Origin: an uncultured Candidatus Peribacteria bacterium | Lineage (GTDB): Bacteria; Patescibacteriota; Gracilibacteria; UBA1369; 2-02-FULL-48-14 | Assembly: GCA_964359495.1 (NCBI GenBank) | Contig: CAYHTG010000002.1 | Location: 8,943-54,031 of the forward strand | DNA: 45,089 bases | Reading direction: 5' to 3' | Shown here: positions 8,175-25,261 of the stretch, in pieces | Position numbering within the stretch: the stretch's first letter is position 1 | How the letters are laid out: every line of letters starts with the position of its first letter | Notes under the pieces: model-generated | The model's database searches: none | The model's input: the letters and a program-made list of their open reading frames with translations, nothing else | Told to the model about the DNA's origin: nothing | Made by a program: the position numbers and the translations under genes

Positions 8175-8186
8175 ATTATAAACGGC

Positions 8187-8552: not shown

Positions 8553-8575
8553 GGATTGTTGGTTTGGATAAAAAT

Positions 8576-11500
8576 TTAGGCCTTTCTTACGGCAAGTTTA
8601 GCTGAGAACCCTTCGATATTGAAATCTTTTTCTAAATCCCACTCAAAATTACCCCCTTGCATCAGTTCCTCCGCCAAGGTTTCTTCGCGAATGATCCCGG
8701 CAAATTGAGTCACCGCAGCTTCCAACTTACCTTCACTTTTGACTTGAGCATGGATACGATCGCTCACTTGGTAACCTGCTTCTTTGCGCAGATCTTGAAG
8801 ATGACGTACCACTTCCCGCATGAGACCTTCGAGCTCGAGCTCTTCCGTGAGATTTAAATCAAGAGAAACCACCGTGCCATCCTCAGACTCAATATCTATG
8901 CCTTCCTTCCCTTTATAAGCCATCTCGACTTCATTGGGTTCTAAAGTGAAACCGGCCACCACCACTTTTCCGTTTTCCAAAACCTTAAAATTTCCACTTT
9001 TTGCTTCCCGTATGATTTTTTGAACTTCTTTCCCATATTTTGGACCCAAGAGTTTTGCGTTCGGCAGGGCGACGAAATCGGCCAAGTCTCCCGCATTTTC
9101 CAATATTTCGAGTTCTTTAACATTCAGTTCTTCAAGAATCACTTCTTTTTGAAGGGTTACTTTTTCGGGATTCACGGATTTAGGAAGTCCGATGATCACT
9201 TTTTGCAAAGGCTGACGAACGCGAATTTTTTTCTTTCCACGAATGGCGTGACCTAAGTTCACAATTTGCCTAGCCAAATGGATTTCCTCATTAAGTCCCT
9301 GATCAATTTTTTCTTCTTCGGCTTTGGGCCAGTCAGAGAGGTGCACCGATTCTTGCTCCGTTAGATTTCTGTAGATTTCATCAGCGAGAAAAGGCATAAA
9401 GGGAGCCAGGAGCTGTGAAAATTTTACTAAAACTTCGTATAAAGTGCTGTAAGCGCAGAGTTTATCTCCATCATTTTCCGATTTCCAGAAACGACGACGA
9501 CTACGCCTGACGTACCAGTTTGAAAGGTCGTCTACAAAATCCAGCATGGGACGGGTTGCTTTGGTGAGGTTGTAGTTGTCCATGTTTTCCGTGACTTCTT
9601 TAATCAAGTCATTGAGACGAGAAAGAATCCAAAGGTCGAGTTTGTGAGTACTGTCTATTTTTAAGCTCGGCTGCGCCGAGTAACCATCAATATTCGCGTA
9701 AGTCACAAAAAAGCTATAGGTGTTCCAAAGGGTAAGAGTGAATTTCTTAACAAGTTCATCTACATGTTGTTCGGAAAAACGCACATCTTCCGCAAGAGGC
9801 GCTGTGGAGGTGTAAAGAAACATGCGGGTGGAATCCACACCCTTCTCTTCGAAAAGGAATTTGGGGTCGGGATAGTTTTTCTTTCGTTTGGAAAGTTTTT
9901 CTCCGTCAGCGGCAAGGAGAATCCCGTTCACAATGACGTTTTTAAAGGCCGGTTTGTCGAACAAAATGGTCGCGAGCACATGAAGGGTGTAAAACCATCC
10001 CCGAGTTTGATCGACTCCTTCGGCAATGAAGTTGGCCGGAAAATTATTTTCAAATTCTTCTTTGTTCTCGAAAGGATAGTGGAGCTGAGCGTAAGGCATG
10101 GCTCCCGATTCAAACCAACAATCGAGGACTTCAGGGATGCGCTGCATCATCCCGCCGCATTTTGTACAAGGAAACGTGACTTCATCAATATAGGGTTTAT
10201 GCAAATCGACTTCCCCCTCCCGCATGGGAACTTTTCCACTGCGCGCTTTCAGTTCTTCAATGGAACCAAGGCACTCTTGCGCCTCGCACTGTTCGCACTC
10301 CCAAATTGGAAGAGGCGTCCCCCAAAAACGATTCCTTGAAATATTCCAATCACGAACGTTTTCGAGCCATTTCCCAAAACGGCCTTCTTTAATATGATCG
10401 GGCTGCCAATGAATTTTTTTGTTGTTGGCGATGAGTTTATCCTTAATATCCGTCACTCGAATGAACCAAGCTTTGGTGGCATAATTGAGAAGCGGCGTGT
10501 CGCAACGCCAGCAATGAGGGTAGCTGTGACGAATATTTTCTTTTTTAAACAATTTCTCGCGTACCTCCATATCCTCGGCGAGGTTTTGGTCTTGAGTTTT
10601 TGCAAATTTACCCGAAAAATTTCCTACCGTTGCATCATAAAGCCCATCCATGGAAACATTAAGAATGAGCGGAAGATTGTGCAGTTTTGCGGCTTCCATG
10701 TCGATTTCTCCAAAAGCGCCGTTGATGGTCGCAATTCCCGTTCCATCTTCATCGCTCACATAATCGGTGGCGACGGTGTGAAAAGCTTTTTCTGATTTCT
10801 GAACCTCGGGATGAGAATTGTAATAATCAAAAACATGTTTGTATTTTTTCCCAATAATTTTCTCGCCTTTGAAGTGCTCAATGATCTCATACTCTGCAGG
10901 GGGCAGATGAGCGAAGGCCCAAGGAACTCGTTTTTCCGCAAGTATGAAATTTCCACGGGGTGTCCGAACCTTAACGTAATCGATGTCTTTTTTTACGGCC
11001 AGCCCCATGGTTGAAGGGATGCTCCATGGGGTCGTGGTCCAAGCAATGAAAAAAGTACCCGGCTCTTCTTCAAGTTCAAATTGTGCGATCACTGAAAGGT
11101 CCGTGACATCTTTGTAGCCGAGAGAAACTTCGAAATTCGAAAGCGGCGTGACGCAACGAGGGCAAACGTGCATGGCTTTAAAATCCTGATACATCATTCC
11201 TTTGTCCCAAATCTGCTTGAAGACCCACCAAATCGATTCCATGTAGTTCGCGTTCAAAGTCGCATAGCCATGCTCAATATCCACCCAACGAGCCAAGCGC
11301 TCCAGGAGTTCATTCCACTGCTCGGTATAACGAAAAACACTTTCGCGACATTTACCATTAAAAGTTTCAATGCCCATGGCTTCGATGTCTTTCCGTCCGT
11401 TTAAGCCCAAGGCTTTTTCAATTTCGTATTCCACGGGAAGCCCATGACAATCCCAGCCGTTCACACGAGGGACATAGTAGCCCCGCATAGTGAAATACCG

Positions 11501-11749: not shown

Positions 11750-12742
11750 ATGAAAAAACCAAAAATTTGTCTCCTCTTCTGTGGTGGAACCATTGGGATG
11801 GTGCGCAATTCAAAGACAGGAGTCCTGGAACCGGCGCAAGACGCGTCCGAGATTTTACGGCTTTTTCCGGAACTGCAGAAAATCCTCCAGTTTGATTTTA
11901 AGGTTTTAGTGAATATTGACAGTTCGAACATGGATCCTGAGATTTGGACGCAAATTGCAAAGAAAATTCACAGTCTTTACGATCAGTATGATGGATTTGT
12001 AGTGGCTCATGGAACGGATACCATGGCCTACACGGCAAGTGCGATGTCTTTCGCTTTGCAAAATTTAAATAAACCAATAGTTTTTACCGGGTCTTTGGTC
12101 CCTTTGAGTGAAATTGGTTCAGACGGAAGGAATAATTTGATTTACGCTTGTCTCACCGCCACCCTGGATATTGCTGAGGTTTGCATCGTTCTTTCGAATC
12201 ATATTATTCGAGGGAATCGAGCTAAAAAATTCCATGAATCGTTCTCGGCTTTGTTCCACTCCCCCAACTACCCTGTTCTTGGCGAACTCGGTCGTCCGAT
12301 TAAACTGAATGATTGGAGACTCAAACGACGCGACAGAAAACTACACTACCAGCCTTTATTCGACACTAAAATCTCTGTCTTAAAACTTTTCCCCGGTTTT
12401 GATCCTGAAATTATAGACAAAGTGTTGGAACGAAAAGCTCATGGCATTATTTTAGAGGGATTTGGTCCCGGGAACGTCCCCTCCAATATTATTTCAAAAA
12501 TTGAAAAATGTACCAAGCAAGGCGTGCCCTTAGTCTTGGCCAACCAAATGGAGAATGGAGTGACTAACCTTGCCTCTTACGCCGTGGGTTATCAAGCGGA
12601 GCAAGCCGGCGCACTGAGTTCCAAGGACATGACTACCGAATCCACCGTGAGCAAACTCATGTGGGTTTTAGCTCAAACACGAAAACTTTCTGAAATTCGT
12701 AGCCTCATGGAAAGCGATTTGGCCGGAGAAATGAGTGCATAA
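11750..12742 (+). CDS. type I L-asparaginase family protein
   Basis: ICLLFCGGTIGM (catalytic Thr motif) and VVAHGTDTMAYTA (second Thr motif). The ORF is 330 aa and lies divergent from ileS across a 42-bp spacer. Confidence 0.85.
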   Translation: MKKPKICLLFCGGTIGMVRNSKTGVLEPAQDASEILRLFPELQKILQFDFKVLVNIDSSNMDPEIWTQIAKKIHSLYDQYDGFVVAHGTDTMAYTASAMSFALQNLNKPIVFTGSLVPLSEIGSDGRNNLIYACLTATLDIAEVCIVLSNHIIRGNRAKKFHESFSALFHSPNYPVLGELGRPIKLNDWRLKRRDRKLHYQPLFDTKISVLKLFPGFDPEIIDKVLERKAHGIILEGFGPGNVPSNIISKIEKCTKQGVPLVLANQMENGVTNLASYAVGYQAEQAGALSSKDMTTESTVSKLMWVLAQTRKLSEIRSLMESDLAGEMSA

Positions 12743-12818: not shown

Positions 12819-12847
12819 TTGTCAAGGACGCGGCTTTCACTTATCAT
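12819..12847 (+). promoter_or_regulatory. candidate sigma-70-type promoter for the small-ORF/giant-ORF unit
   Basis: TTGTCA (12819-12824), a 17-nt spacer, then TATCAT (12842-12847). This is read by eye and has no experimental support. Confidence 0.3.
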
Positions 12848-12878
12848 TCGGCACTATTTAATGTTTCACTTGTGCTTT

Positions 12879-13121
12879 ATGGAAAAAATAATCTCTTTTC
12901 AAAGATTTATTATCGAACTGCTGGCCGTGCAGTTGCCCAAACTCAACTTGAGCGAGCTTGAGGTTTTAGGCACTCAGGTGGCGATTTACTCTTATTTTGA
13001 GAACAACAATTCGCTCGAAAAAATTTATTTTGAGATTTTGGATTATTGCGATGAGAACGAAAAATTGAGTGTTTTGCTCCCTAAAATTGAAGACTTTTAC
13101 TCTCAAACCCTCGATTCATGA
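12879..13121 (+). CDS. hypothetical small acidic protein, translationally coupled to the giant ORF
   Basis: The ORF ends in ATGA, overlapping the giant-ORF start at 13118. I chose the ATG at 12879 (MEKIISFQRF..., 80 aa). ATG 12861 and the track start 12819 remain possible. I recognise no family. Confidence 0.4.
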   Translation: MEKIISFQRFIIELLAVQLPKLNLSELEVLGTQVAIYSYFENNNSLEKIYFEILDYCDENEKLSVLLPKIEDFYSQTLDS

Positions 13122-16100
13122 GCGCCAATTCGAGTGTTTCATTGGATTACTACCACGATCTGGAAGGAGAGATCGCTCAGCTTAAAGCTTTTGCCGAGCC
13201 TTTGATGGAGGAAGTGAAAGTAACGCCCCTCATGCCGGTTATTAATCGTATCATTAACCTGAAGGATAGGCTCCTCGGCCTCAGCGAAGGAGAGCTTCAA
13301 TATGTGCAGGCCGAAGTGGCGGAGTGCAAGCGTTTGCTCGATGATATTTCCTACGAATACATCAAACAAATCATCACCAAACCCATTCCTTCGGATGTGT
13401 TTGGAGTCCTTTCCAGCGGCACAGAGTTCGAGAAAACCTTACGATCGGCAATTGGGAAAAAGATTTCTACCGGTAAGGGTGACCCTGAAGTTGCCATCAC
13501 ACCCGACCTGGTTGACGCTCTCACTCGCTACCGATTTTCGCTCGGAACTCCTCCCGTCACGCCCAAAGGGATCCAAACGGTTGAGAAAATTGTTTTTGGT
13601 GGAACTTTGCAAAATATTTATGCCTTTCGAGATCTCATCCGTTGCGATAGAGGGGTTTTTGATCGTTTCTTGGGTGCCGTCGATAGGCTCAATGAGCAAA
13701 GTACTCATTACACGACGGAAGCTGAAAAGCGAGATTTCAAAAAAAAGGCAATTGAGTTCCCCAATTTGGAAGGAGCTCGCGGTCTCACCAAAGCCATTGT
13801 GAGCGGAACGTCCGAAACCGCTCTTCGTTTGGTTAGGGAGCAGCTCTTCAGCAAACATGCGAATGGAAATTGTCCGGTACGAGTGATGGAAGAGGCGGAG
13901 CCTTTTACTCCTCATTTGATGCAAGAAATGAAAGCGGATAAACGATCCATGTTTATCGTGAAGGCAAGCTCCATTCCACATCACATTTTTACGGATGACG
14001 TTCTAAAAGAAGAATGGAAAGGACTTATCGGTCGTTTGGTTGTTATTGATGATTCCGACGCCGCAAAAAGATCGGGTACCGTTTTGGTTTACTCTCTTAT
14101 TCCGGAGGTCACCAGGTATTTGGAGCAATTCCATGTGAAAGATTCCGGAACGCCCGCCAACACGCAAATGAACCTTCGTCTGATTCTGGAGAATTTTAAA
14201 AATGGCGATATTGATCAACTCATTCAAAGTGTAAACGAAAAGGCCGCCCTCTTGGAAGCGGAAGGTGTGCATTTGCTTCCGCACGGAGAAGTTCGAAAAA
14301 AAGAATGGCAAAAAACAGGACAATTGGATTATATGAATTTGAAGAAATTCAAGCGCTTTTTGGAATTTGTGAAAAAAATGAAGTCGGGTGATTTTTCTGA
14401 AATTGGGGAAAATAATCGTCGTCTTGAGAGACGAACCGGTGAGCTCACGATGGATTATTTCTTCAAAGACTTAAAAGGTAAAGGGTATCGTGCCATTACT
14501 GTTCCTCAAGGTGGCGGTCGTCGTGAAATCGGACTTCCGGGACGCTTTCATTTGAAGGGTCACAATAAAAAAGTTGCCGACTTTAAAGGGCAAAAACTCC
14601 AGGCATGCAGAGAAAAACTCCTTGCATTAAAAAGAGATCTTGGAATACCCGAGGAGACCACGGCGGCGGAAGCGGCGGCTTTACAGCGCGCCTTGGACGC
14701 TCGAAGAAGTCCTCACCTTCCCCCTGAGGGAGAAGCCGTCAGTCGTATTGGCGCCAAAGTAAAAACCCGCGTCACGGAAGCCATTCATGAATCGGCGCTT
14801 CGATCGGACGTCGTTGTGAATGCCGTGATTGCCCGTATGGATGAGGTGCTTGGCGCCAATATTCCGGGTTTTATGAAAGGAAAAGTCACGAAACTTCTTC
14901 GAAGTGGTGGGATTGAAGCGGCGGCAAAAATGTTTGACCGTGGACAATTCAGAGCTGCGGCAAACCGTCTCAGAGCCTTGGGAGGGCGCATCAGAGTCGG
15001 GGCCGCCCATCTTGCCGAAAAAATTCAAACCCCTTTGGAAATAATTCGGTCTCGTTTGGAACCGGCTGATCTGGACTTGGTGGAACGTCTTCTGAATGAC
15101 ATTGAGAACGGGTCGTTTGAGCCGAGTCTTGCCTTGTCTGAGGTAAGCTGGACGGTGGGAGATGTTTTACGCGAAGAAGATTTCCCCAAAAAGAACTTTA
15201 TTAAAATTGAGTTGAACGGCGACGGATCGCAAAATCCCGATTCTCTTGAAAGACAATTGGAAGAAAAACGCCGAGCACTCGCCGAGTTTCCGGAACTCTT
15301 TGAGCTGTATTGCTCCAGTATATTGATTTACTTCAATGATCCGCACAATCCGACCTCTCAAGTGGCCAGCCCCCAAGTAAAGCTGAAACTGTTGGATCTT
15401 GCCTCCCGATACAACTTGGCTATTTTGGCCGATGAACCTTATCACAAACAAGTTTCCAAGAAAGTAAAAGACCGACAAGGCGATCCTTCTTTTGCCGAGT
15501 TTTACGAACGATACCGACCTCGTTTCCCCAATCCGGTTCGCATCTACGGCTCCATCTCAACGACGAAGTGGGCCATGGGAGCCGGGCGGCGCACGGGAGT
15601 GCTTCTGACGAATGACAACTCCGTGATGGAAGACGGAAAGAATTTTGAAGATTTTGTGGCCGAGAATATTGATGGCTGCAATGCCATGTCTCTGTACATG
15701 GACCAAGAAACTTTACTCATCGGTCTCCTGGTAAAAAGAGTTTGCAAACCCATTGAGGCTTACATTGATGTGACGAATCCTTACAATATCCTCAGTAATG
15801 CTCTTAATCCTTACGGTAATACTTGTGAGTTGCTTGATCAAATTCTCCATGAGAATTTTTCCGATCTAAACGCGGAAGATTTTAACGCTGCCATGTATTC
15901 ACTTCTTCTTGACTCTCGAAACAAGCTCGATCGACTTCAAGCACGTGGCGCTGAGCCTATGGATTACTATCAATTTTTGAGCGATCTTGTTTCAAAACTT
16001 AAAGAATTCCGGCTCGATAAACAAACTCAAAAAGACTCCGCGCAAAGGAGCCAGGCCGCATGGGAAGCCGTGAAGCGTTTGTCCGCAGAATTTCCAGGCC

Positions 16101-19100
16101 TTGAAGAACGGTGCATCGAGCCACAAGGTCCTTTTTATTTCTTGGTGGGTCTTGATCAAACGACCAATGATCCCGCGCTGCGGCCTTTTCTTTTGGCTCT
16201 GGCACGTGCTCGAAAAATTGAAGTTGTTCCACAGGCCAAAGGGTATGCTCGTTTTGCTTTCGGAGGTTTGGTGGATGGAACCGAGGAAGGATACAAGGAT
16301 TTTAGTTTGGGTATTGAAACGGATCTTCGTTTGCTTCTCAAATATTGGGATGAGTTCCAAGCCATTCGTGCTCGCTTGAACAAAGAAAAAGACCTGGATC
16401 CCATTAACAATGCGCTCAAGGAACTCTTCCCCGGCGGTGAAATTGATTTGGCGCGAACGATACAAGATAAAAGTGTGCTTCTTGAGCGTTTGCGCTCGAA
16501 CCCACGCACCGGAAAAGACAGACTCACCAATCGTTTTTCTCCGGCTGGTTCACAATACATGTCCAGCATTGAACCAGGCTCTCCGACCACCATTGTCACC
16601 ATTCGTGACGTCCAATGTCGAACGGCGGAAGATTTTATAAACAGCGAAGCTTTCCGTGATTTGTTCAATATTTTCTTGCTTCAAGTGAAAGGTCAAATTT
16701 CGGGCTTGGAGCAAATGGAAGACAGTGCCATTATCGCTCAATATGGCGCCGATGAATTTGCGAAACGCTTCGAATCCCGCAACTTCCAAAATGTTCGCCG
16801 TGATATTTTTGAAGAAATCGCCATTCGCGTCGCGAATTTGTGGTTTAACCCGAGTATGATCAAGATTTTGGGACTCAAAATTCCCGACGGTCTTTCAGCC
16901 TCGGACCAAGGAGATCTTTTGAGAGGAGCAGAAGTGAGAATTTCAGACTTTATCCAGACGATTATTCAAGCTTTTGTTAGTCCGGAGAAGGAGGCTCAAG
17001 TTCTCCAAGAAAGAATTGAAATGATCATTAAGGGCTTAAATCAAAAACTTCCTCAAGAAGATAGAGAAAAACTTCTGGTATACACTCGTGATTACGAATT
17101 GTTTTCAGCTTTTTTGAACAGTCTCGACGAAGATTTGGTTCCTCTGCATACGAAAGAAAGATTATTGGCTCTGACTCGAAAAGTCAGTTACCCTGCAAGT
17201 TTTCAAGCCGCTTATCCCACGGTTCGCGGCATCAAGGCCGATTCCGGTTTACAAGCATGGGCTCAAAAATTTATAGGCCGTGCGGAATTCGCCGGACAAA
17301 GCGTGGCTACCGATAGGTCCCCCGCCATGGTTACTCCCGGCACGGCTCGAGTGGCCGGTTATGAGCGAGGTATTTATCGCCGCGACGGAGACGGTAGTTC
17401 CGCTCCCGGGAAAGATTTTTTTAGAAAACGCTTGGGTGAATTTGCCGAAGTTATGAATCCCAAAGACTACGTGTGCAAAATGGTTCAAGTGGGTCCTACG
17501 CGACTCATGCTCGTAATGCACCGATCCTACAGCCACTACATGGTTCATGAACTTCAACTTTTCCCTCAATTCGATGTCTCTTTGGCCGAAATGCAAAATT
17601 TGAAGCCGGACGCCATCTGTTTTATGGGTATTCCCACTAAAACGATCGGGGAAGATTACAGAATCGGTAACTTTTTGGATGAAGATTCCGATGGAACTTC
17701 CATTCCGGTTTCCTGGGTTGATGCTGAGGACATTACCGATTACATGGGCTATTTTAAAAAACCCGTACTGACGGTGGCCAATGAACGGGTAAAAGCCGTC
17801 GGCGGAATGCCCGTTCATGGTTCAGCGCTCACCATTACGGCAAAGAACGGACTTCGTAAAACAGTGGTTATGGGAGGTGACAGCGGAACGGGTAAGTCGG
17901 AAACCATCATCGCGATGACCAATCAAATTATTGAGGGCCTTGGCGGTGCAGAAAATATTGAATCGGTGGAATTGCTCTCGGGAGACATGTTGTCTCTTTT
18001 CGAAGGTGAAGATGGGGAAATGTACATGATGGGAACCGAATCGGGAGATTTTATGCGTTTAACCGATATTCCCAAGGAGTGGCAGGAAAGGATGAGAGAC
18101 TGGATCAGTAGTTCAAGTAAAACCAACCTTGACGACAAAACCAATCCGAGAGCGACCATTAACGGTATCTGCGATCCCAATGTTTTTTTGAGTCCGGTTC
18201 GAGTGAATATCTTCGCCAATATCAATAATTTTGAAAAACCCGAAGGCGCGGCTTTTCAAGAGGACCGAGACCCTGCGAACTTGCTGCTCGATACTTATGT
18301 AAAAGGCTATCGCTGTGAAAAAGGTACCAGTGGAGATCAGCCCAATCTTTTTGCCAGCATCGAGCAGAGTAAAGTGCCTGACCGTGAGACATTGCTCACC
18401 AAATATAAGGAGGATTTGGATCGGCTTCTGGGTTGGAACCTTATTCTGGCAAAGACTGGAAAAGTAAAAACATCCATTCTTTCTTTCAAAGACGTTCCCG
18501 GTGAAGTGTTTAAGGCCAGTCAAATGGTGAAGGATCTTTTTGTCGGGAAGCATTGTGACTATAAAGACAAAGAGAAAAAGGAAGAAAAAAACTATACGAT
18601 TTTAGACGCTCGGTATGCAGTGCGCGAAAATCGTTTTTATGTCACGGTCAAAGATGAAGATACGGGTGCGACGGAGGAAAAACCTTTGGATCGAAACATT
18701 TTCGATGGAGTTTACAATCCCATTGCCAGCACCTATTGCGGAAATCCATTTGTTGATCCGCGCGGTATGGATTCCGTCTTGCGAAGATTTGCAGGGGTAA
18801 TGAAGAAAGCAGGCGTCATTACGGGTAACTTGTACACGGAGTTAGGTGTTGAAGGGGAAGAGCGCAGCGGTCCCGCACGAGCCGCTCAAGCGTTGATTGA
18901 GTTTATTGAAGAAGATCCTCGCATCAATGAACGTTTCCAGCGCAATAAAGATCGTGTTTCACGGGCGCTCACCACAAAATACGGAGCCGCCATTTTGGGG
19001 CAAGGCAGTATTCCTCAAGAAGTGGAGGCTCATAATCTTTATCTTCTGGAAAGACAGGAAAGCGATGCCGTTCATTTGGTGGACAGCGCGAGAAAAACCG

Positions 19101-19444
19101 TTCCCATTCGAACGCCTCACTACGAAAATGTCTCTGGAAGGTCTAAAAAAGAATTTGCGCCTTCTCTTGTTCGCCCGGAAATCGCAAAAATCATCAATGC
19201 GGTTTGTGAGGGTCCCGACGGCAAGGCTATCAATCTGGAGCATTTCGACCCTCCTCTAGAACGTTATGATTCCATTCAAACTTGGGACAACAAAGCCGAG
19301 CTCATTTATCAAATTTTGCTCATCAATGGTGTAATGCGGCTCGGGTACATCGAAGGCATTGTTCATCACCAAATCGCTGAAGTCAAAAAAGCTGAAAAGA
19401 TCGCTGAGGAATTAATGCGAAGTAGAAGTGTAAGTGCGGCCTAA
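13118..19444 (+). CDS. giant 2108-aa multidomain protein: central split aminotransferase class I/II-like fold plus an HprK/PEPCK-like P-loop kinase domain; the rest is unassigned
   Basis: A single uninterrupted ORF. Aminotransferase-like motifs: ITVPQGGGRRE (aa 460), FNDPHNPTSQV (aa 740), LADEPYHKQV (aa 772), SISTTKWAMGAGRRTGVLL (Lys817) and PQGPFYFLVG (aa 1002). Kinase-like motifs: VHGSALTI...VVMGGDSGTGKSETIIAM (aa 1566-1600). Confidence 0.85.
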   Translation: MSANSSVSLDYYHDLEGEIAQLKAFAEPLMEEVKVTPLMPVINRIINLKDRLLGLSEGELQYVQAEVAECKRLLDDISYEYIKQIITKPIPSDVFGVLSSGTEFEKTLRSAIGKKISTGKGDPEVAITPDLVDALTRYRFSLGTPPVTPKGIQTVEKIVFGGTLQNIYAFRDLIRCDRGVFDRFLGAVDRLNEQSTHYTTEAEKRDFKKKAIEFPNLEGARGLTKAIVSGTSETALRLVREQLFSKHANGNCPVRVMEEAEPFTPHLMQEMKADKRSMFIVKASSIPHHIFTDDVLKEEWKGLIGRLVVIDDSDAAKRSGTVLVYSLIPEVTRYLEQFHVKDSGTPANTQMNLRLILENFKNGDIDQLIQSVNEKAALLEAEGVHLLPHGEVRKKEWQKTGQLDYMNLKKFKRFLEFVKKMKSGDFSEIGENNRRLERRTGELTMDYFFKDLKGKGYRAITVPQGGGRREIGLPGRFHLKGHNKKVADFKGQKLQACREKLLALKRDLGIPEETTAAEAAALQRALDARRSPHLPPEGEAVSRIGAKVKTRVTEAIHESALRSDVVVNAVIARMDEVLGANIPGFMKGKVTKLLRSGGIEAAAKMFDRGQFRAAANRLRALGGRIRVGAAHLAEKIQTPLEIIRSRLEPADLDLVERLLNDIENGSFEPSLALSEVSWTVGDVLREEDFPKKNFIKIELNGDGSQNPDSLERQLEEKRRALAEFPELFELYCSSILIYFNDPHNPTSQVASPQVKLKLLDLASRYNLAILADEPYHKQVSKKVKDRQGDPSFAEFYERYRPRFPNPVRIYGSISTTKWAMGAGRRTGVLLTNDNSVMEDGKNFEDFVAENIDGCNAMSLYMDQETLLIGLLVKRVCKPIEAYIDVTNPYNILSNALNPYGNTCELLDQILHENFSDLNAEDFNAAMYSLLLDSRNKLDRLQARGAEPMDYYQFLSDLVSKLKEFRLDKQTQKDSAQRSQAAWEAVKRLSAEFPGLEERCIEPQGPFYFLVGLDQTTNDPALRPFLLALARARKIEVVPQAKGYARFAFGGLVDGTEEGYKDFSLGIETDLRLLLKYWDEFQAIRARLNKEKDLDPINNALKELFPGGEIDLARTIQDKSVLLERLRSNPRTGKDRLTNRFSPAGSQYMSSIEPGSPTTIVTIRDVQCRTAEDFINSEAFRDLFNIFLLQVKGQISGLEQMEDSAIIAQYGADEFAKRFESRNFQNVRRDIFEEIAIRVANLWFNPSMIKILGLKIPDGLSASDQGDLLRGAEVRISDFIQTIIQAFVSPEKEAQVLQERIEMIIKGLNQKLPQEDREKLLVYTRDYELFSAFLNSLDEDLVPLHTKERLLALTRKVSYPASFQAAYPTVRGIKADSGLQAWAQKFIGRAEFAGQSVATDRSPAMVTPGTARVAGYERGIYRRDGDGSSAPGKDFFRKRLGEFAEVMNPKDYVCKMVQVGPTRLMLVMHRSYSHYMVHELQLFPQFDVSLAEMQNLKPDAICFMGIPTKTIGEDYRIGNFLDEDSDGTSIPVSWVDAEDITDYMGYFKKPVLTVANERVKAVGGMPVHGSALTITAKNGLRKTVVMGGDSGTGKSETIIAMTNQIIEGLGGAENIESVELLSGDMLSLFEGEDGEMYMMGTESGDFMRLTDIPKEWQERMRDWISSSSKTNLDDKTNPRATINGICDPNVFLSPVRVNIFANINNFEKPEGAAFQEDRDPANLLLDTYVKGYRCEKGTSGDQPNLFASIEQSKVPDRETLLTKYKEDLDRLLGWNLILAKTGKVKTSILSFKDVPGEVFKASQMVKDLFVGKHCDYKDKEKKEEKNYTILDARYAVRENRFYVTVKDEDTGATEEKPLDRNIFDGVYNPIASTYCGNPFVDPRGMDSVLRRFAGVMKKAGVITGNLYTELGVEGEERSGPARAAQALIEFIEEDPRINERFQRNKDRVSRALTTKYGAAILGQGSIPQEVEAHNLYLLERQESDAVHLVDSARKTVPIRTPHYENVSGRSKKEFAPSLVRPEIAKIINAVCEGPDGKAINLEHFDPPLERYDSIQTWDNKAELIYQILLINGVMRLGYIEGIVHHQIAEVKKAEKIAEELMRSRSVSAA

Positions 19445-20102: not shown

Positions 20103-21443
20103 CTATAAACTAGCGGCCAGTCCAATGTACCCTTCCGGAGTGAGCTTCAGCAAGCGCTTTTTAGCGTCTTCGGGAATGTCGAGTTCATCAACAAAGTTAG
20201 CGATTTTTTTCTGACTTACTTTCTCACCGCGTGTTAGTTCTTTTAACTGCTCGTAGGCATTTTGAATTCCGTAGCGTCGCATCACGGTTTGAATGGCTTC
20301 CCCCAAAAGTTCCCAGTTTTCGTCGAGGTCACTACGAAGCTTTGCTTCATTTACTTCGAGTTTACCGAGTCCCTTTTGAATGCTTTTGTAAGCAAGGAGG
20401 GAATACCCGAGAGCGGTTCCTATGTTTCGGAGCACCGTGCTATCGGTGAGGTCGCGCTGCATGCGGGAGATGGGAAGTTTTTCGCTGAAATGAGTGAATA
20501 AGGCGTTGGCAAGTCCCAAGTTCCCTTCGGCATTTTCAAAATCAATGGGATTCACTTTGTGCGGCATGGTGGATGAACCCACCTCTCCTTTCACTGTCTT
20601 TTGGTTGAAGTAACCCATGGAGATGTAAGTCCAACTGTCACGGCAAAAATCGATCAAAATGGTGTTTGTGCGGCGCAAATTATCAAAAATTTCCGCCATG
20701 TAATCGTGGGGTTCAATTTGCGTGGTGTAGCGTTGCCACTCGAGGCCCAAATCTTCGACAAATTGACGAGAAGCCGCCGCCCAATCCACCTCCGGGTATG
20801 CCACTGTATGCGCATTGAAATTACCCGTTGCTCCATTCATTTTTCCTAAAAACTGAGTTTTTGAAAGTTGTTCATACTGACGGTAAAGACGGGATCCCAC
20901 ATTTTTGAATTCTTTCCCCACCGTGGTTGGCGAGGCCGCTTGGCCGTGCGTGTGGCTCATCATGGGCACTTTTCGATAGGTCTCCGCAAAGTCTTTAAAT
21001 CCGGCTAAAACTTTTTCCAGGTTGGGCAGGAGAATGGTATGTACTCCGCCTTTCAGCATTTGAGCGTAAGCCAAATTATTGATGTCCTCCGAGGTGCAGC
21101 CGAAATGAACAAAAGAAATGAGGTCTCCGCGTTTTAGAACCTTGAGTGCTTTTTGTAAAAAATATTCCACGGCCTTTACATCATGGTTCGTGGTTTTTTC
21201 GATTTCTTTCACCTCCTCGGCAAAGGCATCTTGAAAATCGGTATAGAGCTTTCGGAGGGCGGCCACTTCTTTCTCATGTAGACGTTCAGTCCCTTTCAGT
21301 TTGAGTGTATTGACAAGAAAAATGAGCCATTCCACTTCCACTGCAATACGACTTCGAATGAGTGCGGCTTCGGAAAAAAATCGAGCGAGTTCGCCCACTT
21401 TTTCAACGTAGCGTCCGTCCAATGGAGAGAGTGCTTTGTTCAT
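20103..21443 (-). CDS. purB: adenylosuccinate lyase
   Basis: LSPLDGRY at the N-terminus, the HxxxTSxD-like FGCTSEDINN, and the signature loop GSSTMPHKVNP. I chose the ATG at 21443. The alternative GTG at 21455 would abut purE. Confidence 0.95.
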   Translation of the reverse strand: MNKALSPLDGRYVEKVGELARFFSEAALIRSRIAVEVEWLIFLVNTLKLKGTERLHEKEVAALRKLYTDFQDAFAEEVKEIEKTTNHDVKAVEYFLQKALKVLKRGDLISFVHFGCTSEDINNLAYAQMLKGGVHTILLPNLEKVLAGFKDFAETYRKVPMMSHTHGQAASPTTVGKEFKNVGSRLYRQYEQLSKTQFLGKMNGATGNFNAHTVAYPEVDWAAASRQFVEDLGLEWQRYTTQIEPHDYMAEIFDNLRRTNTILIDFCRDSWTYISMGYFNQKTVKGEVGSSTMPHKVNPIDFENAEGNLGLANALFTHFSEKLPISRMQRDLTDSTVLRNIGTALGYSLLAYKSIQKGLGKLEVNEAKLRSDLDENWELLGEAIQTVMRRYGIQNAYEQLKELTRGEKVSQKKIANFVDELDIPEDAKKRLLKLTPEGYIGLAASL

Positions 21444-21454
21444 TTTTATACGCA

Positions 21455-21925
21455 CTAAAGTGTGCAGGGTTTAGTATCAAATAAATTTTGAACCACTTTG
21501 GTATGATTACGAACTTTTTTTGCGAGATCCTTGTCGGTCAAAGCTAAAATGCGAGCCACCGCTTGACCGGCATTTTTCGGATCCACTACTGTAAGAGCCG
21601 GAGTTTCACTGGGCATTTGCAAGGAGGAATGAATGTTGGCCAAGTAATCGGCGTAGTCTTTAAAGGGGGGACAAGCCAAAACCGGAAAATGCGTATTGGC
21701 GGAAACCAATCCACTGAGGGCGTTGGATCGACCGGCTATGGTCACAAAAACCACACTTTCTTTTTTTTCATTAAAATGTTTAATGATTTCCAGCGTTTTT
21801 TCAGGAACTTTGTGCGCGGAGGAAATATAAATTTCATGTTTCACACCGTAATCGTCCAAAATTTTGGCGATTTCCTTAGCGTGATCGAGGTCGGATTTTG
21901 AGCCGAGTATAAAAGGGACAATCAT
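21455..21925 (-). CDS. purE: 5-(carboxyamino)imidazole ribonucleotide mutase / AIR carboxylase catalytic subunit
   Basis: ILGSKSDLDHAKEIAKILDDYGV...ISSAHKVPEKT and IAGRSNALSGLVSA are PurE motifs. The ORF is 156 aa. Confidence 0.9.
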   Translation of the reverse strand: MIVPFILGSKSDLDHAKEIAKILDDYGVKHEIYISSAHKVPEKTLEIIKHFNEKKESVVFVTIAGRSNALSGLVSANTHFPVLACPPFKDYADYLANIHSSLQMPSETPALTVVDPKNAGQAVARILALTDKDLAKKVRNHTKVVQNLFDTKPCTL

Positions 21926-22890
21926 AGGAAATAAGGTTTAAGATTAGTTTCAATGCGAGAAAGAACGTCGCCGGGCTCGGCCGTGAAGCTTTGTCCCGTG
22001 ATCATTTCATAAGCTTGAATGTATTTCTCGGCAGTTTCACAAATAACCTCCTGTGGAATTTCCGGGATTTCCCCTTCCCCGGTATAGCCTTTGTTGGCGA
22101 GCCAGAGTCGCAAAAATTCTTTATTGATGTTATCGGGTTCTTGGCTGGTGGCCATTTTTTCTTCGTAAGTCGCGGCAATCCAGAACCGTGAAGAGTCGGG
22201 CGTGTGGATTTCATCGATCACCACAATGTCCCCTTCCGGGGTGAAGCCGAATTCGTATTTGGTGTCCACCAGAATCACTCCTTGGCGAGCGGCCACTTCC
22301 ACTCCTCTGGCGTAGAGCATCAGCGCATAATTGGAGAGTTTTTCCCATTGCTCGGCGGTGAGCAAGCCTTGCTTCAGAATCTCTTCGGGCGTGAGGTTGG
22401 CATCGTGATCGCCGTGTGCCGCTTTGCTGGTTGGGGTGATGATAGGAGCGCGCAAGCGCTCGTTCTTCTTGAGCCCCTCCTGTAAAATATTACCTCCGAT
22501 ATTCCTTCCCCCGTTCGCATAAATCGTCCACGCAGAAGTTGAGGTGGAGCCGGTGATGTAACCGCGCACAATCATCTCCACCATGATGGGTTTGCACTCC
22601 TTCCCCACAATCACTTGCGGATCGGGATAGGATTCGATGTAATTCGGGCAAATGTCCTTCGTATTTTCAAACCAAAACTTCGTGAGCGCGTTGAGCACTT
22701 GACCCTTGAACGGAATGAGCGCGATGACTCGGTCGAAGGCGGAAAGGCGGTCACTGGTTATGAGGATGCGGCGCTTGCCTTGAGTGTAGTTGTCACGAAC
22801 CTTCCCCTCGTAATAGCTTCCGAGATTTGTAAAACTCGTGCCTTTCAAAACATGAGGGATTTGAGAGGCAATGACGTCGCGAGGGATCAT
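21922..22890 (-). CDS. purC: SAICAR synthetase (long form)
   Basis: YEGKVRDNY, LITSDRLSAFD, ILVDTKYEFG and EIHTPDSSRFW are PurC motifs. It overlaps purE by 4 nt. Confidence 0.9.
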   Translation of the reverse strand: MIPRDVIASQIPHVLKGTSFTNLGSYYEGKVRDNYTQGKRRILITSDRLSAFDRVIALIPFKGQVLNALTKFWFENTKDICPNYIESYPDPQVIVGKECKPIMVEMIVRGYITGSTSTSAWTIYANGGRNIGGNILQEGLKKNERLRAPIITPTSKAAHGDHDANLTPEEILKQGLLTAEQWEKLSNYALMLYARGVEVAARQGVILVDTKYEFGFTPEGDIVVIDEIHTPDSSRFWIAATYEEKMATSQEPDNINKEFLRLWLANKGYTGEGEIPEIPQEVICETAEKYIQAYEMITGQSFTAEPGDVLSRIETNLKPYFL

Positions 22891-23034
22891 TTCGGGGGAT
22901 GGGTTAAGGTGTGAGTGTAGTTTAAAGGAAAAGTGCGGGGGTGGGAAGAGGGAGATTTAACTATAATTAGACATTTGCTTGAGTTATGATTTTCGTATAA
23001 CAAAACTTGATTAAATCTCAACTTAATTTCCCTT

Positions 23035-24801: not shown

Positions 24802-24806
24802 CGTCC

Positions 24807-24962: not shown

Positions 24963-25062
24963 AAATTTTAGCGTTAACTGACGGTGAAATAGTACTCCGA
25001 TGAAGTAGTGCAAGCAACTTTTGGTGCTCAAAAATGTGTTGTCAGAGCAGTGACAACAGGCA

Positions 25063-25245: not shown

Positions 25246-25261
25246 TTACTTCTTTGTAAAA

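What the first reader, a model, noticed from the sequence alone, without database searches (positions are those of the whole stretch)
14435..16300. Aminotransferase class I/II fold split by a large Ala/Arg-rich insert, with the PLP-lysine signature retained
All landmark motifs of class I/II aminotransferases appear in the canonical order:
- ITVPQGGGRRE (the V.T.G...A region)
- FNDPHNPTSQV (N-P-x-N-P-T)
- ILADEPYHKQV (the D-E-x-Y region)
- SISTTKWAMGAGRRTGVLL (the S-x-S-K...G-x-R-x-G region, with Lys817)
- PQGPFYFLVG
- ARFAFGG

About 270 residues separate the first motif from the second. Part of that stretch (nt ~14650-15040) is strikingly Ala/Arg/Gly-rich and GC-rich. This is visible in the ORF track as two long antisense ORFs (14681-15028 and 14785-14991), which arise only because of the local GC skew. 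Retention of the Lys and Asp positions suggests that PLP is still bound. The insert would sit near the large-domain/small-domain junction.
Basis: partly seen in the sequence, partly recalled or inferred. Interest (0 to 1): 0.7.

Follow-up and report, generated by a model that had tools for sequence, protein, structure and literature searches.

The report
Insert-bearing aminotransferase fused to PEPCK-like enzyme
The flagged stretch does encode a vitamin-B6 (PLP) aminotransferase fold interrupted by helical insertions, but it is only one module of a conserved 2,108-residue protein that also carries a PEP-carboxykinase-like module, a fusion I found no description of, which may link aspartate to phosphoenolpyruvate in bacteria reported to lack PEPCK.

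Summary
All six motifs are at the stated positions in one intact ORF (13118-19444, 2108 aa). Every canonical fold-type I ligand position is invariant in 73 homologues.

Three results confirm a class I/II aminotransferase fold:
- Pfam PF00155 scores above its curated threshold.
- Profile alignments place the ligand residues on their canonical counterparts.
- A confident AlphaFold model gives 493 PDB matches, and the 50 listed are all class I/II aminotransferases or ACC synthases.

There are two all-helical insertions, not one:
- Insert 1 (aa ~493-663) lies in the large domain, after the phosphate-loop helix.
- Insert 2 (aa ~885-965) lies at the large-to-small domain transition.

Insert 1 is family-wide, fast-evolving and under purifying selection. 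Its Ala/Arg richness is specific to the Peregrinibacteria clade.

The module sits between an N-terminal domain private to this family and a C-terminal module with a PEPCK fold that keeps the PEPCK catalytic motifs. The roughly 2,000-2,250-aa family occurs in Peregrinibacteria and Bacteroidota, and databases label it only generically.

My best inference is an aminotransferase coupled to PEPCK-like chemistry (Asp↔oxaloacetate↔PEP). The function is untested. Novelty: new variant of a known kind. Interest: 0.6.

The parts
13118..19444 (+). Single intact ORF of 2108 aa (stop codon included) that contains the finding. It belongs to a conserved family of ~2000-2250-aa proteins.
   Evidence: ORF list. 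75 homologues, 28-88% identical, most covering 97-100% of the query. All segments are conserved across two clades.
13118..14308 (+). N-terminal domain (aa 1-397) of unknown function, private to this family. Invariant motifs include SxGxPP (141-146), QST(H)YTTxxE (194-203) and GxxAN(T)Q (344-350), where residues in parentheses are conserved in at least 90% of members.
   Evidence: No Pfam or NCBIfam hit. Exhaustive phmmer against 1.84 billion representatives finds only 56 hits; about half are 1,960-2,240 aa and the shorter ones look like truncated gene calls. hhalign shows no relation to the other modules. Invariant columns.
14309..16402 (+). Aminotransferase (fold-type I PLP) module, aa 398-1095, including two helical insertions.
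   Evidence: AF2 pLDDT 87.7, pTM 0.86, with all seven large-domain strands present. Foldseek top hits are all class I/II aminotransferases or ACC synthases. Pfam PF00155. Profile alignments.
14510..14521 (+). Invariant Gly-rich loop GGGR (aa 465-468) between strand 458-462 and helix 468-492. It is the presumed PLP-phosphate loop (canonical S/G-G-T/K position).
   Evidence: Invariant in 73 of 73 sequences. Position in the predicted secondary structure. Not alignable by sequence profile.
14594..15106 (+). Insert 1 (aa ~493-663): an all-helical insertion of seven helices within the large domain. It is Ala/Arg-rich in this lineage and is the fastest-evolving segment of the protein.
   Evidence: Helices in the AF2 model, pLDDT 53-88. 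Length 167-184 aa in the Peregrinibacteria clade and ~107 aa in the Bacteroidota clade; A+R+G 0.23-0.36 against 0.09-0.20 in the sequences listed. dN/dS 0.18 against ~0.05 for the core. No Pfam hit. The C-terminal edge is fixed by alignment of aa 670-678 to the canonical strand TILLPSIAW.
15335..15355 (+). N-D-P-H-N-P-T (aa 740-746). N744 corresponds to Asn194 of AspAT numbering (the PLP O3' ligand; numbering from textbook knowledge).
   Evidence: N740, D741, P742, N744 and P745 are invariant. Aligned to NSPNNPTG of 1o4s and to the canonical family.
15431..15442 (+). D772-E-P-Y775, the D-E-x-Y motif (Asp to pyridine N1; Tyr to O3').
   Evidence: D772 and Y775 are invariant. Aligned to DEVY of 1o4s and DEMY of the canonical family.
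15563..15598 (+). T816-K817 (Schiff-base lysine) through G823-x-R825-x-G827 (phosphate-binding Arg).
   Evidence: T816, K817, G823 and G827 are invariant; R825 is present in 72 of 73. K817 aligns to the SK lysine, and R825 to the Arg of the GxRxG motif (GWRVG, GLRIG).
15770..16012 (+). Insert 2 (aa ~885-965): a helical insertion after the long interdomain helix, at the large-to-small domain transition.
   Evidence: Extra helices in the AF2 model. Removing it extends the Pfam match from profile positions 145-197 to 145-314. In the insert-spliced alignment, 13 residues of 1o4s span the place where ~120 residues lie in the native protein. Length 62-89 aa across the family.
16241..16264 (+). G1042-Y-A-R1045-F-A-F-G1049. 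R1045 is the equivalent of the substrate alpha-carboxylate Arg (Arg386 in AspAT numbering).
   Evidence: R1045 and G1049 are invariant. Aligned to GFVRLSF of 1o4s and the RIGLG motif of the canonical family.
16403..17203 (+). Mostly helical linker region (aa 1096-1362) of unknown function.
   Evidence: AF2 secondary structure. No Pfam or NCBIfam hit. No profile relation to the other modules.
17204..19441 (+). PEPCK-like module (aa ~1363-2108), with an internal insertion (~aa 1770-1870) and a C-terminal extension (~aa 1935-2108) relative to the stand-alone homologues.
   Evidence: AF2 pLDDT 89.0, pTM 0.86. The top 50 Foldseek PDB hits are all ATP- or GTP-PEPCK, E down to 3.8e-11, 370-540 aligned columns. 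The core profile hits Thermus ATP-PEPCK at E 3.2e-4. 30% identity to ~560-aa stand-alone proteins.
17741..17902 (+). PEPCK-type catalytic block: Y1542-x-G-x-x-K1547-K1548 ... H1567 ... P-loop G1587-D-S-G-T-G-K1593-S1594-E1595.
   Evidence: All invariant in the family. Aligned to YAGEIKK...H...GLSGTGKT of Thermus PEPCK and to a canonical PEPCK from L024. That alignment also maps D1623 onto the second Asp of the kinase-2 'DD' motif, and maps E1641 and R1647.
12819..13121 (+). Small conserved upstream ORF (up to 100 aa; probably ~79 aa from the ATG at 12882). Its stop codon overlaps the start of the giant ORF (ATGA), so it may be a translationally coupled partner in Peregrinibacteria.
   Evidence: ORF list. 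tblastn: 80% identity in L001 and 42% in L002 (E 4e-12), absent from L003. No Pfam hit.
14681..15028 (-). Antisense shadow ORF (115 aa), with a nested one at 14785-14991 (68 aa). Neither is a gene.
   Evidence: The sense frame is under purifying selection. Comparable antisense open stretches occur eight times along the gene.

Best explanation
**Shown.** Nucleotides ~14309-16402 encode the PLP-dependent, fold-type I (class I/II) aminotransferase module of a conserved 2108-aa cytoplasmic multidomain protein. The canonical fold is complete: seven large-domain strands plus the small domain. Every canonical ligand position is conserved:
- N744, D772, Y775, K817, R825 (PLP ligands)
- R1045 (substrate alpha-carboxylate)

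The fold carries two all-helical insertions. Insert 1 (~170 aa) sits between the phosphate-loop helix and strand 2. Insert 2 (~80 aa) follows the interdomain helix. The same chain carries a PEPCK-fold module that keeps the PEPCK signature residues Y, KK, H, the P-loop Lys/Ser, the metal-binding Asp and an Arg. It also carries an N-terminal domain found nowhere else.

**Inferred.**
- The module binds PLP and is catalytically competent, presumably as the usual homodimer.
- It transaminates an alpha-amino acid, most plausibly aspartate to oxaloacetate.
- The 2-oxo acid is made for, or taken from, the PEPCK-like module: oxaloacetate + NTP <-> PEP + CO2 + NDP. The protein would thus couple Asp <-> OAA <-> PEP in one polypeptide and protect the labile oxaloacetate.
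- The helical inserts are structural arms that dock the aminotransferase core to the other modules or shape a shared substrate path. They are not catalytic elements.

**Sub-confidences.** Functional PLP aminotransferase-fold module with inserts: ~0.85. Functional coupling to the PEPCK-like module: ~0.5. Asp/OAA/PEP as the actual substrates: ~0.35.
For: **Fold and ligands.**
- Pfam PF00155 above its curated threshold, and matched in 22 of 22 members.
- Invariant ligand columns.
- Residue-level alignments to solved aminotransferases and to a canonical aminotransferase family (hhalign 98%).
- AF2 pLDDT 87.7, and full-length Foldseek matches to class I/II aminotransferases.

**Inserts.**
- Helical in the model and present in the whole family.
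- Under purifying selection, dN/dS 0.18.
- Removing them lengthens the Pfam match.

**PEPCK-like module.**
- AF2 pLDDT 89.0.
- All 50 top Foldseek hits are PEPCK.
- Profile hit to Thermus PEPCK at E 3.2e-4, aligning Y-x-G-x-x-K-K, H and the P-loop. The alignment extends to D1623, E1641 and R1647. All these residues are invariant.

**Asp/OAA/PEP link (circumstantial).**
- The best solved matches of the aminotransferase module are aspartate aminotransferases.
- An asparaginase lies immediately upstream on the same strand in the window, L001 and L002.
- The window also encodes purC, purB, purA and AspRS.
- Stand-alone homologues of the PEPCK-like module lie beside an AspC-like aminotransferase (L023), canonical PEPCK genes (L024, L029), a fumarase/aspartase-family lyase (L029) and aspartate 1-decarboxylase (L033).
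- The Peribacter genome paper reports asparaginase and aspartate aminotransferase producing oxaloacetate, with 'scant opportunities for use' and no PEPCK identified (PMC4736985).
Against: - No activity, cofactor binding or substrate has been tested.
- The PEPCK-like module fails the curated thresholds: Pfam PEPCK_ATP 15-19 bits against 26.5, and NCBIfam scores far below cutoff.
- The first Asp of the kinase-2 'DD' pair is Gly in the giant family.
- The equivalent of the oxaloacetate-binding Arg65 was not mapped.
- Stand-alone relatives co-occur with a canonical PEPCK. From general knowledge, Bacteroidota usually have pckA. The module is therefore probably not just a redundant PEPCK and may use another substrate or phosphoryl donor.
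- No neighbouring gene is conserved across the family. The asparaginase adjacency is restricted to close relatives.
- The context survey of stand-alone relatives is small and uncontrolled: 4 of 11 loci have direct Asp/OAA/PEP-node neighbours, 4 have looser links and 3 have none.
- The N-terminal third of the aminotransferase module, including GGGR, could not be aligned by sequence profile.
- The role of the private N-terminal domain is unknown.
- I could not inspect model coordinates. The spatial position of the inserts and any channel are therefore inferred, not shown.
Confidence: 0.45

Rival explanations
1. The aminotransferase-fold module binds PLP and an amino-acid ligand, but acts as a sensor, allosteric or dimerisation domain that controls the PEPCK-like module. 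It would not be a transaminase that feeds it. Precedents are the aminotransferase-fold domain of MocR/GabR regulators and the inactive PTA domain fused to malic enzyme.
For: Fused metabolic domains can be purely regulatory; the PTA domain of malic enzyme is an example (review PMC8100219). Retained PLP ligands are equally expected for a ligand-sensing aminotransferase domain. The large surface inserts and the private N-terminal domain fit a scaffold or regulatory assembly. The stand-alone PEPCK-like proteins function without any fused aminotransferase.
Against: All catalytic and substrate-binding positions are conserved across clades that are only ~21-25% identical, not only the PLP-anchoring ones: N744, Y775, R1045 and the Gly loop. 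dN/dS of the core is as low as that of the PEPCK-like module. No HTH or other regulatory output domain was found.
Confidence: 0.2
2. Both modules are catalytic but act on substrates other than Asp/OAA/PEP. For example, the PLP module could perform a different class I reaction (C-S lyase, ACC-synthase-like, or another amino acid), and the PEPCK-like module could phosphorylate or decarboxylate a different carboxylate or enol compound. The private N-terminal domain could contribute a third step of an unknown pathway.
For: The aminotransferase profile also matches ACC synthases, C-S lyases and Ala/Tyr/aromatic aminotransferases. The best NCBIfam hit is a cyclodehydratase, GntC. The PEPCK-like family is distant from true PEPCK and co-occurs with it. 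Its Halothermothrix member sits at the end of an argCJBD operon next to carAB. The N-terminal domain has invariant polar motifs that suggest an active site.
Against: The PEPCK-specific residues for enolate/CO2 and Mn chemistry (Y, KK, H) are invariant. Among common amino acids, only aspartate gives a beta-keto acid that PEPCK-type chemistry can decarboxylate (textbook chemistry). The contextual hints cluster around aspartate.
Confidence: 0.25
3. The insert is non-functional filler: a disordered low-complexity linker, an assembly artefact, or a decaying or foreign segment. Alternatively, the antisense ORFs are the real genes.
For: Insert 1 is compositionally biased and has the lowest conservation and the lowest pLDDT (53-88) of the module. 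Antisense ORFs of 115 and 68 aa exist.
Against: The reading frame is intact. The insert is present in all 73 homologues at a clade-typical length and is predicted as packed helices within a pTM 0.86 model. It is under purifying selection, dN/dS 0.18. GC3 equals that of the rest of the gene, so there is no sign of foreign origin. Shadow ORFs occur all along the gene.
Confidence: 0.03

Closest known systems
Class I (AspAT-like, Pfam PF00155) aminotransferases, e.g. Thermotoga maritima AspAT 1o4s, Pyrococcus 1dju/1gd9, Thermus AspAT 1bjw, KAT II/LysN/Aro8
   Same: Same fold by Foldseek: roughly full-length alignment, TM ~0.5 on target length. Same order and identity of PLP and substrate ligands: NPxNPT, DExY, S/T-K, GxRxG and the C-terminal Arg. 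The Pfam gathering score is passed.
   Different: About 650 aa instead of ~390, because of two helical insertions of ~170 and ~80 aa. Only 11-16% identity. The N-terminal third is unrecognisable by sequence profile. It is embedded in a 2108-aa chain rather than being a free ~45-kDa dimer. Substrate unknown.
ATP- and GTP-dependent PEP carboxykinases (PckA; e.g. 1j3b Thermus, 6at3 E. coli, 4r43 M. tuberculosis, rat cPEPCK)
   Same: The C-terminal module has the PEPCK fold. It keeps the Y-x-G-x-x-K-K, His, P-loop Lys/Ser-Thr, metal Asp and downstream Arg/Lys positions.
   Different: Below the Pfam and NCBIfam family thresholds. 11-14% identity. Its HprK-type P-loop is GDSGxGKSE. The first Asp of the DD pair is Gly. 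It has extra insertions and a ~170-aa C-terminal extension. It is fused to an aminotransferase. No activity is known.
Uncharacterised stand-alone 'PEPCK-like ATPase' family (~550-610 aa) of Thermotogota, Halothermothrix and others (e.g. L024:9311-10993; P0174 of H. orenii)
   Same: These are the closest sequence relatives of the C-terminal module: 30% identity over ~320 aa, BLASTP 1e-30. They share the motifs YFGYxKK, PxHG, GDSGTGKSE, GTExGxFxR and NPFG...TxLGxxGxExxGP.
   Different: They have no aminotransferase module and no private N-terminal domain. They keep the DD pair. More than 3,000 members carry inconsistent names: hypothetical protein, ATPase, PEPCK (ATP). Their function is also unknown.
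HPr kinase/phosphorylase
   Same: The P-loop sequence GDSGxGKSE is identical in type, and HprK/P belongs to the same P-loop superfamily as PEPCK. Profile hit at E 0.013.
   Different: The match is limited to the P-loop and kinase-2 region. The PEPCK-specific N-terminal domain fold and the Y/KK/His block are present here but are not part of the HprK match. Only 2 of 22 members touch Pfam Hpr_kinase_C, at E 0.004.
MocR/GabR-type proteins and other fusions in which an enzyme-fold domain is regulatory (e.g. the PTA domain of malic enzyme)
   Same: An aminotransferase-fold, PLP-binding domain fused to another functional module in one chain.
   Different: No wHTH/GntR domain and no other output domain. 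The partner is an enzyme-fold module. All substrate-binding residues are conserved.

Membership tests
Class I/II aminotransferases (Pfam PF00155, fold-type I PLP enzymes) | Significant match to the family HMM above the curated gathering score | tested here: met
   26.0 bits against a cutoff of 19.7, E 6.5e-6. 22 of 22 family members match, best E 3.8e-11. The match covers only profile positions 145-196, extending to 145-314 when the inserts are removed.
Class I/II aminotransferases (Pfam PF00155, fold-type I PLP enzymes) | Schiff-base lysine in the S-x-x-K motif, correctly aligned | tested here: met
   K817 is invariant. It aligns to the SK lysine of 3g0t, 1o4s and a canonical family profile.
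Class I/II aminotransferases (Pfam PF00155, fold-type I PLP enzymes) | Asp to pyridine N1, Asn and Tyr to O3', Arg to phosphate, and the C-terminal Arg to the substrate alpha-carboxylate | tested here: met
   D772, N744, Y775 and R1045 are invariant; R825 is present in 72 of 73. Each is aligned to the canonical DExY, NPxNPT, GxRxG and vRls positions.
Class I/II aminotransferases (Pfam PF00155, fold-type I PLP enzymes) | Gly-rich PLP-phosphate loop at the N-terminus of a helix after the first sheet strand | tested here: inconclusive
   The invariant GGGR465-468 lies between the predicted strand 458-462 and helix 468-492, and the Foldseek alignments span the whole targets. No sequence-profile alignment reaches this region, and model coordinates could not be inspected.
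Class I/II aminotransferases (Pfam PF00155, fold-type I PLP enzymes) | Two-domain fold-type I architecture (seven-stranded large-domain sheet plus a small domain) | tested here: met
   AF2 pLDDT 87.7, pTM 0.86, with seven large-domain strands and C-terminal small-domain strands. 493 PDB matches at E<=1e-3; the 50 listed are all class I/II aminotransferases or ACC synthases.
Class I/II aminotransferases (Pfam PF00155, fold-type I PLP enzymes) | PLP binding, homodimer formation and transaminase (or related) activity | not testable with these tools
   Requires expression, spectroscopy and enzymology.
ATP/GTP-dependent PEP carboxykinase (Pfam PF01293 / PF00821) | Match to the family HMM above the curated threshold | tested here: not met
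   PEPCK_ATP scores 15.4-19.2 bits against a cutoff of 26.5. NCBIfam PEPCK models score 11-17 bits against cutoffs of 369-806. Only 5 of 22 members reach E<=0.01.
ATP/GTP-dependent PEP carboxykinase (Pfam PF01293 / PF00821) | PEPCK two-domain fold | tested here: met
   AF2 pLDDT 89.0. The top 50 Foldseek hits are all PEPCK, E 3.8e-11 to 2e-9, 370-540 aligned columns, TM 0.35-0.46 on target length.
ATP/GTP-dependent PEP carboxykinase (Pfam PF01293 / PF00821) | Catalytic constellation: Tyr, Lys-Lys, His (Mn), P-loop Lys/Thr, kinase-2 Asp-Asp, downstream Lys and Arg | tested here: met
   Y1542, K1547, K1548, H1567, K1593, S1594, D1623, E1641 and R1647 are invariant. They are aligned to Thermus PEPCK (E 3.2e-4) and to a canonical PEPCK. 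Exception: the first Asp of the DD pair is Gly1622. R1678 as the Arg333 equivalent is by eye only.
ATP/GTP-dependent PEP carboxykinase (Pfam PF01293 / PF00821) | N-domain Arg that binds oxaloacetate/PEP (Arg65 in E. coli numbering), and OAA <-> PEP activity | not tested
   The candidate, invariant R1411, was not mapped by any alignment. Activity needs experiments.
HPr kinase/phosphorylase | Hpr_kinase_C domain match and an HprK-type architecture | tested here: not met
   Only the P-loop and kinase-2 stretch aligns, E 0.013. Pfam Hpr_kinase_C is touched by 2 of 22 members at E 0.004. The structural hits are PEPCK, not HprK.
MocR/GabR-type aminotransferase-fold regulators | N-terminal GntR-type winged-helix DNA-binding domain fused to the aminotransferase-fold domain | tested here: not met
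   No HTH or GntR Pfam hit anywhere in the protein, or in 22 family members. The N-terminal domain has no known relatives.

The most novel reading that the evidence does not exclude
The family is a previously unrecognised single-chain aspartate-oxaloacetate-PEP machine. An insert-decorated transaminase hands labile oxaloacetate directly to a divergent PEPCK-type module, with the helical inserts and the private N-terminal domain building the assembly or channel. This would supply the 'missing' PEPCK step of Peregrinibacteria/Peribacteria, which are reported to make oxaloacetate from Asn/Asp with no known use for it. It would also assign a first function to the family of more than 3,000 stand-alone PEPCK-like 'ATPases'.
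Probability: 0.3. Interest if true: 0.75.

Novelty: new variant of a known kind. Interest (0 to 1): 0.6.

Why it matters
1. It shows how far the fold-type I aminotransferase scaffold can be decorated, with about 250 extra helical residues at two surface points, while every catalytic ligand stays invariant.
2. Databases label this ~2,100-aa family only as 'aminotransferase class I/II-fold PLP-dependent enzyme'. That label hides a PEPCK-fold module and a domain with no relatives among 1.84 billion protein representatives.
3. If the two modules are coupled, the protein would be a new type of bifunctional enzyme at the PEP-pyruvate-oxaloacetate node. A detailed review of that node mentions no such fusion (PMC8100219).
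4. It would also make a published puzzle testable: why Peribacteria make oxaloacetate from Asn/Asp yet appear to lack PEPCK (PMC4736985).
5. Cultured carriers make experiments feasible: Alistipes hominis, Marinilabilia salmonicolor, Anaerophaga thermohalophila, and Ancylomarina isolates with RefSeq entries. Paludibacter propionicigenes is represented here only by a metagenome-assembled genome.

Tried and rejected
- **Operon partner.** I looked for a conserved partner across 26 loci carrying the giant gene and found none. Synteny holds only among close relatives, and the asparaginase adjacency occurs only in the window, L001 and L002.
- **Internal duplication.** hhalign of the N-terminal domain, linker and insert 1 against the aminotransferase and PEPCK-like modules gave all probabilities at or below 1.1%.
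- **Family searches on unexplained parts.** Pfam and NCBIfam searches on insert 1, the N-terminal domain and the linker found nothing.
- **N-terminal domain.** Exhaustive phmmer found only the same family and apparent fragments.
- **GGGR motif.** Sequence-profile mapping failed with the spliced Pfam scan, hhalign to an AspC-like aminotransferase and hhalign to a canonical aminotransferase family. None of these reaches the N-terminal third.
- **A failed alignment.** hhalign of the PEPCK-like core against a single canonical PEPCK sequence gave a spurious result and was discarded. It was replaced by the HMMER alignments.
- **Rosetta-stone BLAST.** Searching the other modules against the neighbours of stand-alone PEPCK-like genes gave no hits. 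Pfam then revealed canonical aminotransferase and PEPCK neighbours.
- **Literature.** Five full-text searches found no description of an aminotransferase-PEPCK fusion or of this family.
- **Rejected readings.** The antisense ORFs are not genes. The insert is not of foreign origin, because GC3 is unchanged. HprK, MocR and canonical PEPCK membership are rejected (see the membership table).
- **Untested lead from memory.** Subgroup Ib AspATs use a Lys in the 'G-A/G-K' loop (Lys109) to bind the distal carboxylate. The invariant R468 of GGGR would occupy that position, which would favour a dicarboxylic substrate.

Full report
**1. The observation**

The finding lies inside one uninterrupted ORF, window 13118-19444 (+), 2108 aa.
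- ITVPQGGGRRE, aa 460-470
- FNDPHNPTSQV, aa 739-749
- ILADEPYHKQV, aa 769-779
- SISTTK817...GAGRRTG, aa 812-830
- PQGPFYFLVG, aa 1002-1011
- ARFAFGG, aa 1044-1050

R468 and N740 are 272 residues apart. The two antisense ORFs also exist.

Insert 1 is enriched in Ala (15.8% against 7.0% in the rest of the protein) and Arg (11.1% against 6.5%). The richest 60-aa window is reached in 85 of 2000 shuffles for A+R and 10 of 2000 for A+R+G. GC in the insert is only moderately raised, 0.528 against 0.460. The excess lies at codon positions 1 and 2, while GC3 is unchanged (0.462 against 0.455). It therefore reflects Ala/Arg codons and not a foreign origin.

Long antisense open stretches are not special to this segment. 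One antisense frame has eight stretches of at least 100 aa along the gene.

**2. Is it an aminotransferase fold with retained PLP ligands?**

Yes.
- **Pfam.** PF00155 is matched above its gathering score (26 bits against 19.7, E 6.5e-6), but only over aa 722-783, which correspond to profile positions 145-196 of 361.
- **Homologues.** A search returned 75 proteins of ~2000-2240 aa (apart from three shorter, partial entries), in a Peregrinibacteria clade (35-88% identity) and a Bacteroidota-type clade (~30%). All 22 members scanned hit PF00155, best E 3.8e-11.
- **Conservation.** In a 73-sequence alignment these positions are invariant: GGGR465-468, N740, D741, P742, N744, P745, D772, Y775, T816, K817, G823, G827, G1004, R1045 and G1049. 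R825 is present in 72 of 73.
- **Profile alignment to solved structures.** A family profile of the module with both inserts spliced out hits Thermotoga AspAT 1o4s at E 1.3e-11. It hits 39 distinct PDB sequences at E<=1e-3, all of them class I/II aminotransferases, ACC synthases or C-S lyases. The printed alignments place NPxNPT, DExY, the Schiff-base Lys, the GxRxG Arg and the C-terminal Arg on their canonical counterparts.
- **Profile-profile alignment.** Alignment to a canonical aminotransferase family gives 98% probability, E 1.8e-13, over the same landmarks.
- **Structure.** An AlphaFold2 model of aa 398-1150 is confident (pLDDT 87.7, pTM 0.86) and contains all seven large-domain strands and the small-domain strands. 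Foldseek finds 493 PDB matches at E<=1e-3. The 50 listed are all class I/II aminotransferases (KAT II, LysN, Aro8/9, MppQ, Thermus AspAT) or ACC synthases, aligned over roughly full target length.

One caveat remains. The N-terminal third of the module, including GGGR, is not reached by any sequence-profile alignment. Its assignment as the phosphate loop rests on the predicted secondary-structure order and on the full-length structural matches.

**3. The inserts**

There are two.

*Insert 1 (aa ~493-663)* is predicted as seven helices. Its C-terminal edge is fixed by alignment. Strand aa 670-678 (SLALSEVSW) aligns to TILLPSIAW of a canonical enzyme, where that strand follows the Gly loop after ~15 residues. 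Here it follows after ~200. Insert 1 therefore lies inside the large domain, between the phosphate-loop helix and strand 2. It is not at the domain junction.

*Insert 2 (aa ~885-965, helical)* follows the long interdomain helix. Removing both inserts extends the Pfam match from profile positions 145-197 to 145-314.

Insert 1 is present in every homologue, at 167-184 aa in the Peregrinibacteria clade and ~107 aa in the Bacteroidota clade. Its A+R+G content in the sequences listed is 0.23-0.36 in the first clade and 0.09-0.20 in the second. The Ala/Arg richness is therefore lineage-specific. Insert 1 is the least conserved segment but is under purifying selection: dN/dS is 0.18 against ~0.05 for the core, in a comparison with the 82-85% identical relative L001. 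It matches no Pfam family.

**4.

The aminotransferase module is flanked by three other regions.

*N-terminal domain (aa 1-397).* It has invariant polar motifs and no Pfam or NCBIfam match. Only 56 relatives exist among 1.84 billion representative proteins. About half are 1,960-2,240 aa, and the shorter ones look like truncated gene calls.

*Helical linker (aa ~1096-1362).*

*C-terminal module.* Its AF2 model (pLDDT 89.0, pTM 0.86) matches only PEP carboxykinases among the top 50 PDB hits. These include both ATP and GTP types, with E down to 3.8e-11 and 370-540 aligned columns.

A profile of this core hits Thermus ATP-PEPCK at E 3.2e-4. The alignment covers Y-x-G-x-x-K-K, the His and the P-loop. 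HprK/P comes second (E 0.013) and aligns only at the P-loop. An HMM alignment to a canonical PEPCK extends the mapping to D1623, E1641 and R1647. All these residues are invariant.

The module nevertheless fails the curated PEPCK thresholds, and the first Asp of the DD pair is Gly. I therefore call it PEPCK-like and not a PEPCK.

Its nearest sequence relatives are stand-alone proteins of ~550-610 aa: more than 3,000 in Thermotogota, Halothermothrix and others. They are named inconsistently as 'hypothetical protein', 'ATPase' or 'PEPCK (ATP)'.

**5. Distribution and context**

A scan of GTDB species representatives finds the giant gene in these groups:
- Peregrinibacteria/Peribacteria. The window is closest to RIFCSPLOWO2_01_FULL_48_20.
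- Many Bacteroidota, including genome records of Alistipes hominis, Marinilabilia salmonicolor and Anaerophaga thermohalophila, and a MAG assigned to Paludibacter propionicigenes.
- Ignavibacteriales.

RefSeq names it only 'aminotransferase class I/II-fold PLP-dependent enzyme', for example WP_125031293.1.

No neighbouring gene is conserved across the family. In the window, an asparaginase lies immediately upstream on the same strand; this is also true in L001 and L002. A small conserved ORF overlaps the start codon. The window also encodes purC, purB, purE, purA and AspRS.

I examined eleven loci carrying stand-alone PEPCK-like genes:
- **Direct Asp/OAA/PEP-node neighbours (4 loci):** an AspC-like aminotransferase (L023), canonical PEPCK (L024, L029), a fumarase/aspartase-family lyase (L029) and aspartate 1-decarboxylase (L033).
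- **Looser links (4 loci):** argCJBD with carAB, an OTCase-family gene, a shikimate operon and an AsnRS-like gene.
- **No link (3 loci).**

This survey is suggestive but uncontrolled.

**6. Mechanism**

*Shown.* The module has a complete fold-type I aminotransferase fold with all ligand positions conserved and two helical insertions. It is covalently linked to a PEPCK-fold module with a conserved PEPCK-type active-site constellation.

*Inferred.* The aminotransferase module binds PLP and transaminates an alpha-amino acid. Aspartate is the most economical guess, for three reasons:
- Its keto acid, oxaloacetate, is the PEPCK substrate.
- The best solved matches of the module are AspATs.
- The contextual hints centre on aspartate.

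On this view the protein couples Asp <-> OAA <-> PEP, and the inserts serve as docking or scaffold elements.

The Ca. Peribacter riflensis genome paper reported asparaginase and aspartate aminotransferase producing oxaloacetate. It noted 'scant opportunities for use' of that oxaloacetate, and PEP carboxykinase was 'not identified' (PMC4736985). A hidden PEPCK-like module would bear directly on that gap. A review of the PEP-pyruvate-oxaloacetate node mentions no such fusion (PMC8100219), and five literature searches found none.

*Against.* Nothing has been tested biochemically. The PEPCK-like family co-occurs with canonical PEPCK, so it may use another substrate or phosphoryl donor. The aminotransferase module could also be regulatory.

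**7. Verdict**

What is really there is the aminotransferase module of a conserved, undescribed giant fusion of an aminotransferase with a PEPCK-like enzyme. Novelty: new variant of a known kind. Interest: 0.6.

Noticed in passing
window 12819-13121 (+): A small ORF (probably ~79 aa from the ATG at 12882) ends in an ATGA overlap with the start of the giant ORF. It is conserved in L001 (80% identity) and L002 (42%, E 4e-12) but is absent from L003. It has no Pfam match. It may be a translationally coupled partner specific to Peregrinibacteria.
   Followed up: partly
window 11750-12742, 20103-22890, 28150-29433, 39338-41101: The window is rich in enzymes that make or use aspartate: asparaginase, purB/purE/purC, purA and AspRS, all within ~30 kb of the giant gene. 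This may be coincidence in a small genome, or a loose aspartate-related neighbourhood.
   Followed up: partly
L024:9311-10993, L023:6063-7745, L026:5291-7045, L029:9134-11053; L031-L037: A large family (more than 3,000 proteins, ~550-610 aa) of stand-alone PEPCK-like proteins occurs in Thermotogota, Halothermothrix and others. Its members are annotated inconsistently and often lie next to canonical PEPCK, AspC-like aminotransferase, aspartate decarboxylase, arg/carAB or OTCase-family genes. The family appears uncharacterised and deserves its own study.
   Followed up: partly
L027:1579-2748 (-): In a Porphyromonadaceae MAG, a canonical 390-aa class I aminotransferase lies divergently next to the giant gene (2886-9593). 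Homologues P0260 and P0299 come from contigs of the same length as those holding giant-family members P0045 and P0051, so the adjacency may recur.
   Followed up: no
L020:4854-4856: The Ignavibacteriales copy of the giant gene has a single in-frame TAA, aligned to window aa ~912, inside the variable insert 2. This could be a sequencing error, a pseudogene, or a natural split of the protein within the insert.
   Followed up: partly
window 23001-26000 and 41001-44000: These stretches have low GC (0.35-0.41 against ~0.45). The second contains a C-5 cytosine DNA methylase (42924-43916), so they may be acquired islands. ORFs 23035-24201 (388 aa) and 29430-30023 (196 aa) have no Pfam match.
   Followed up: no
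P0229 (1963 aa): This protein matches the N-terminal domain segment aa 108-200 in ten separate stretches. It appears to be a repetitive protein that reuses a piece of the otherwise family-private domain.
   Followed up: no
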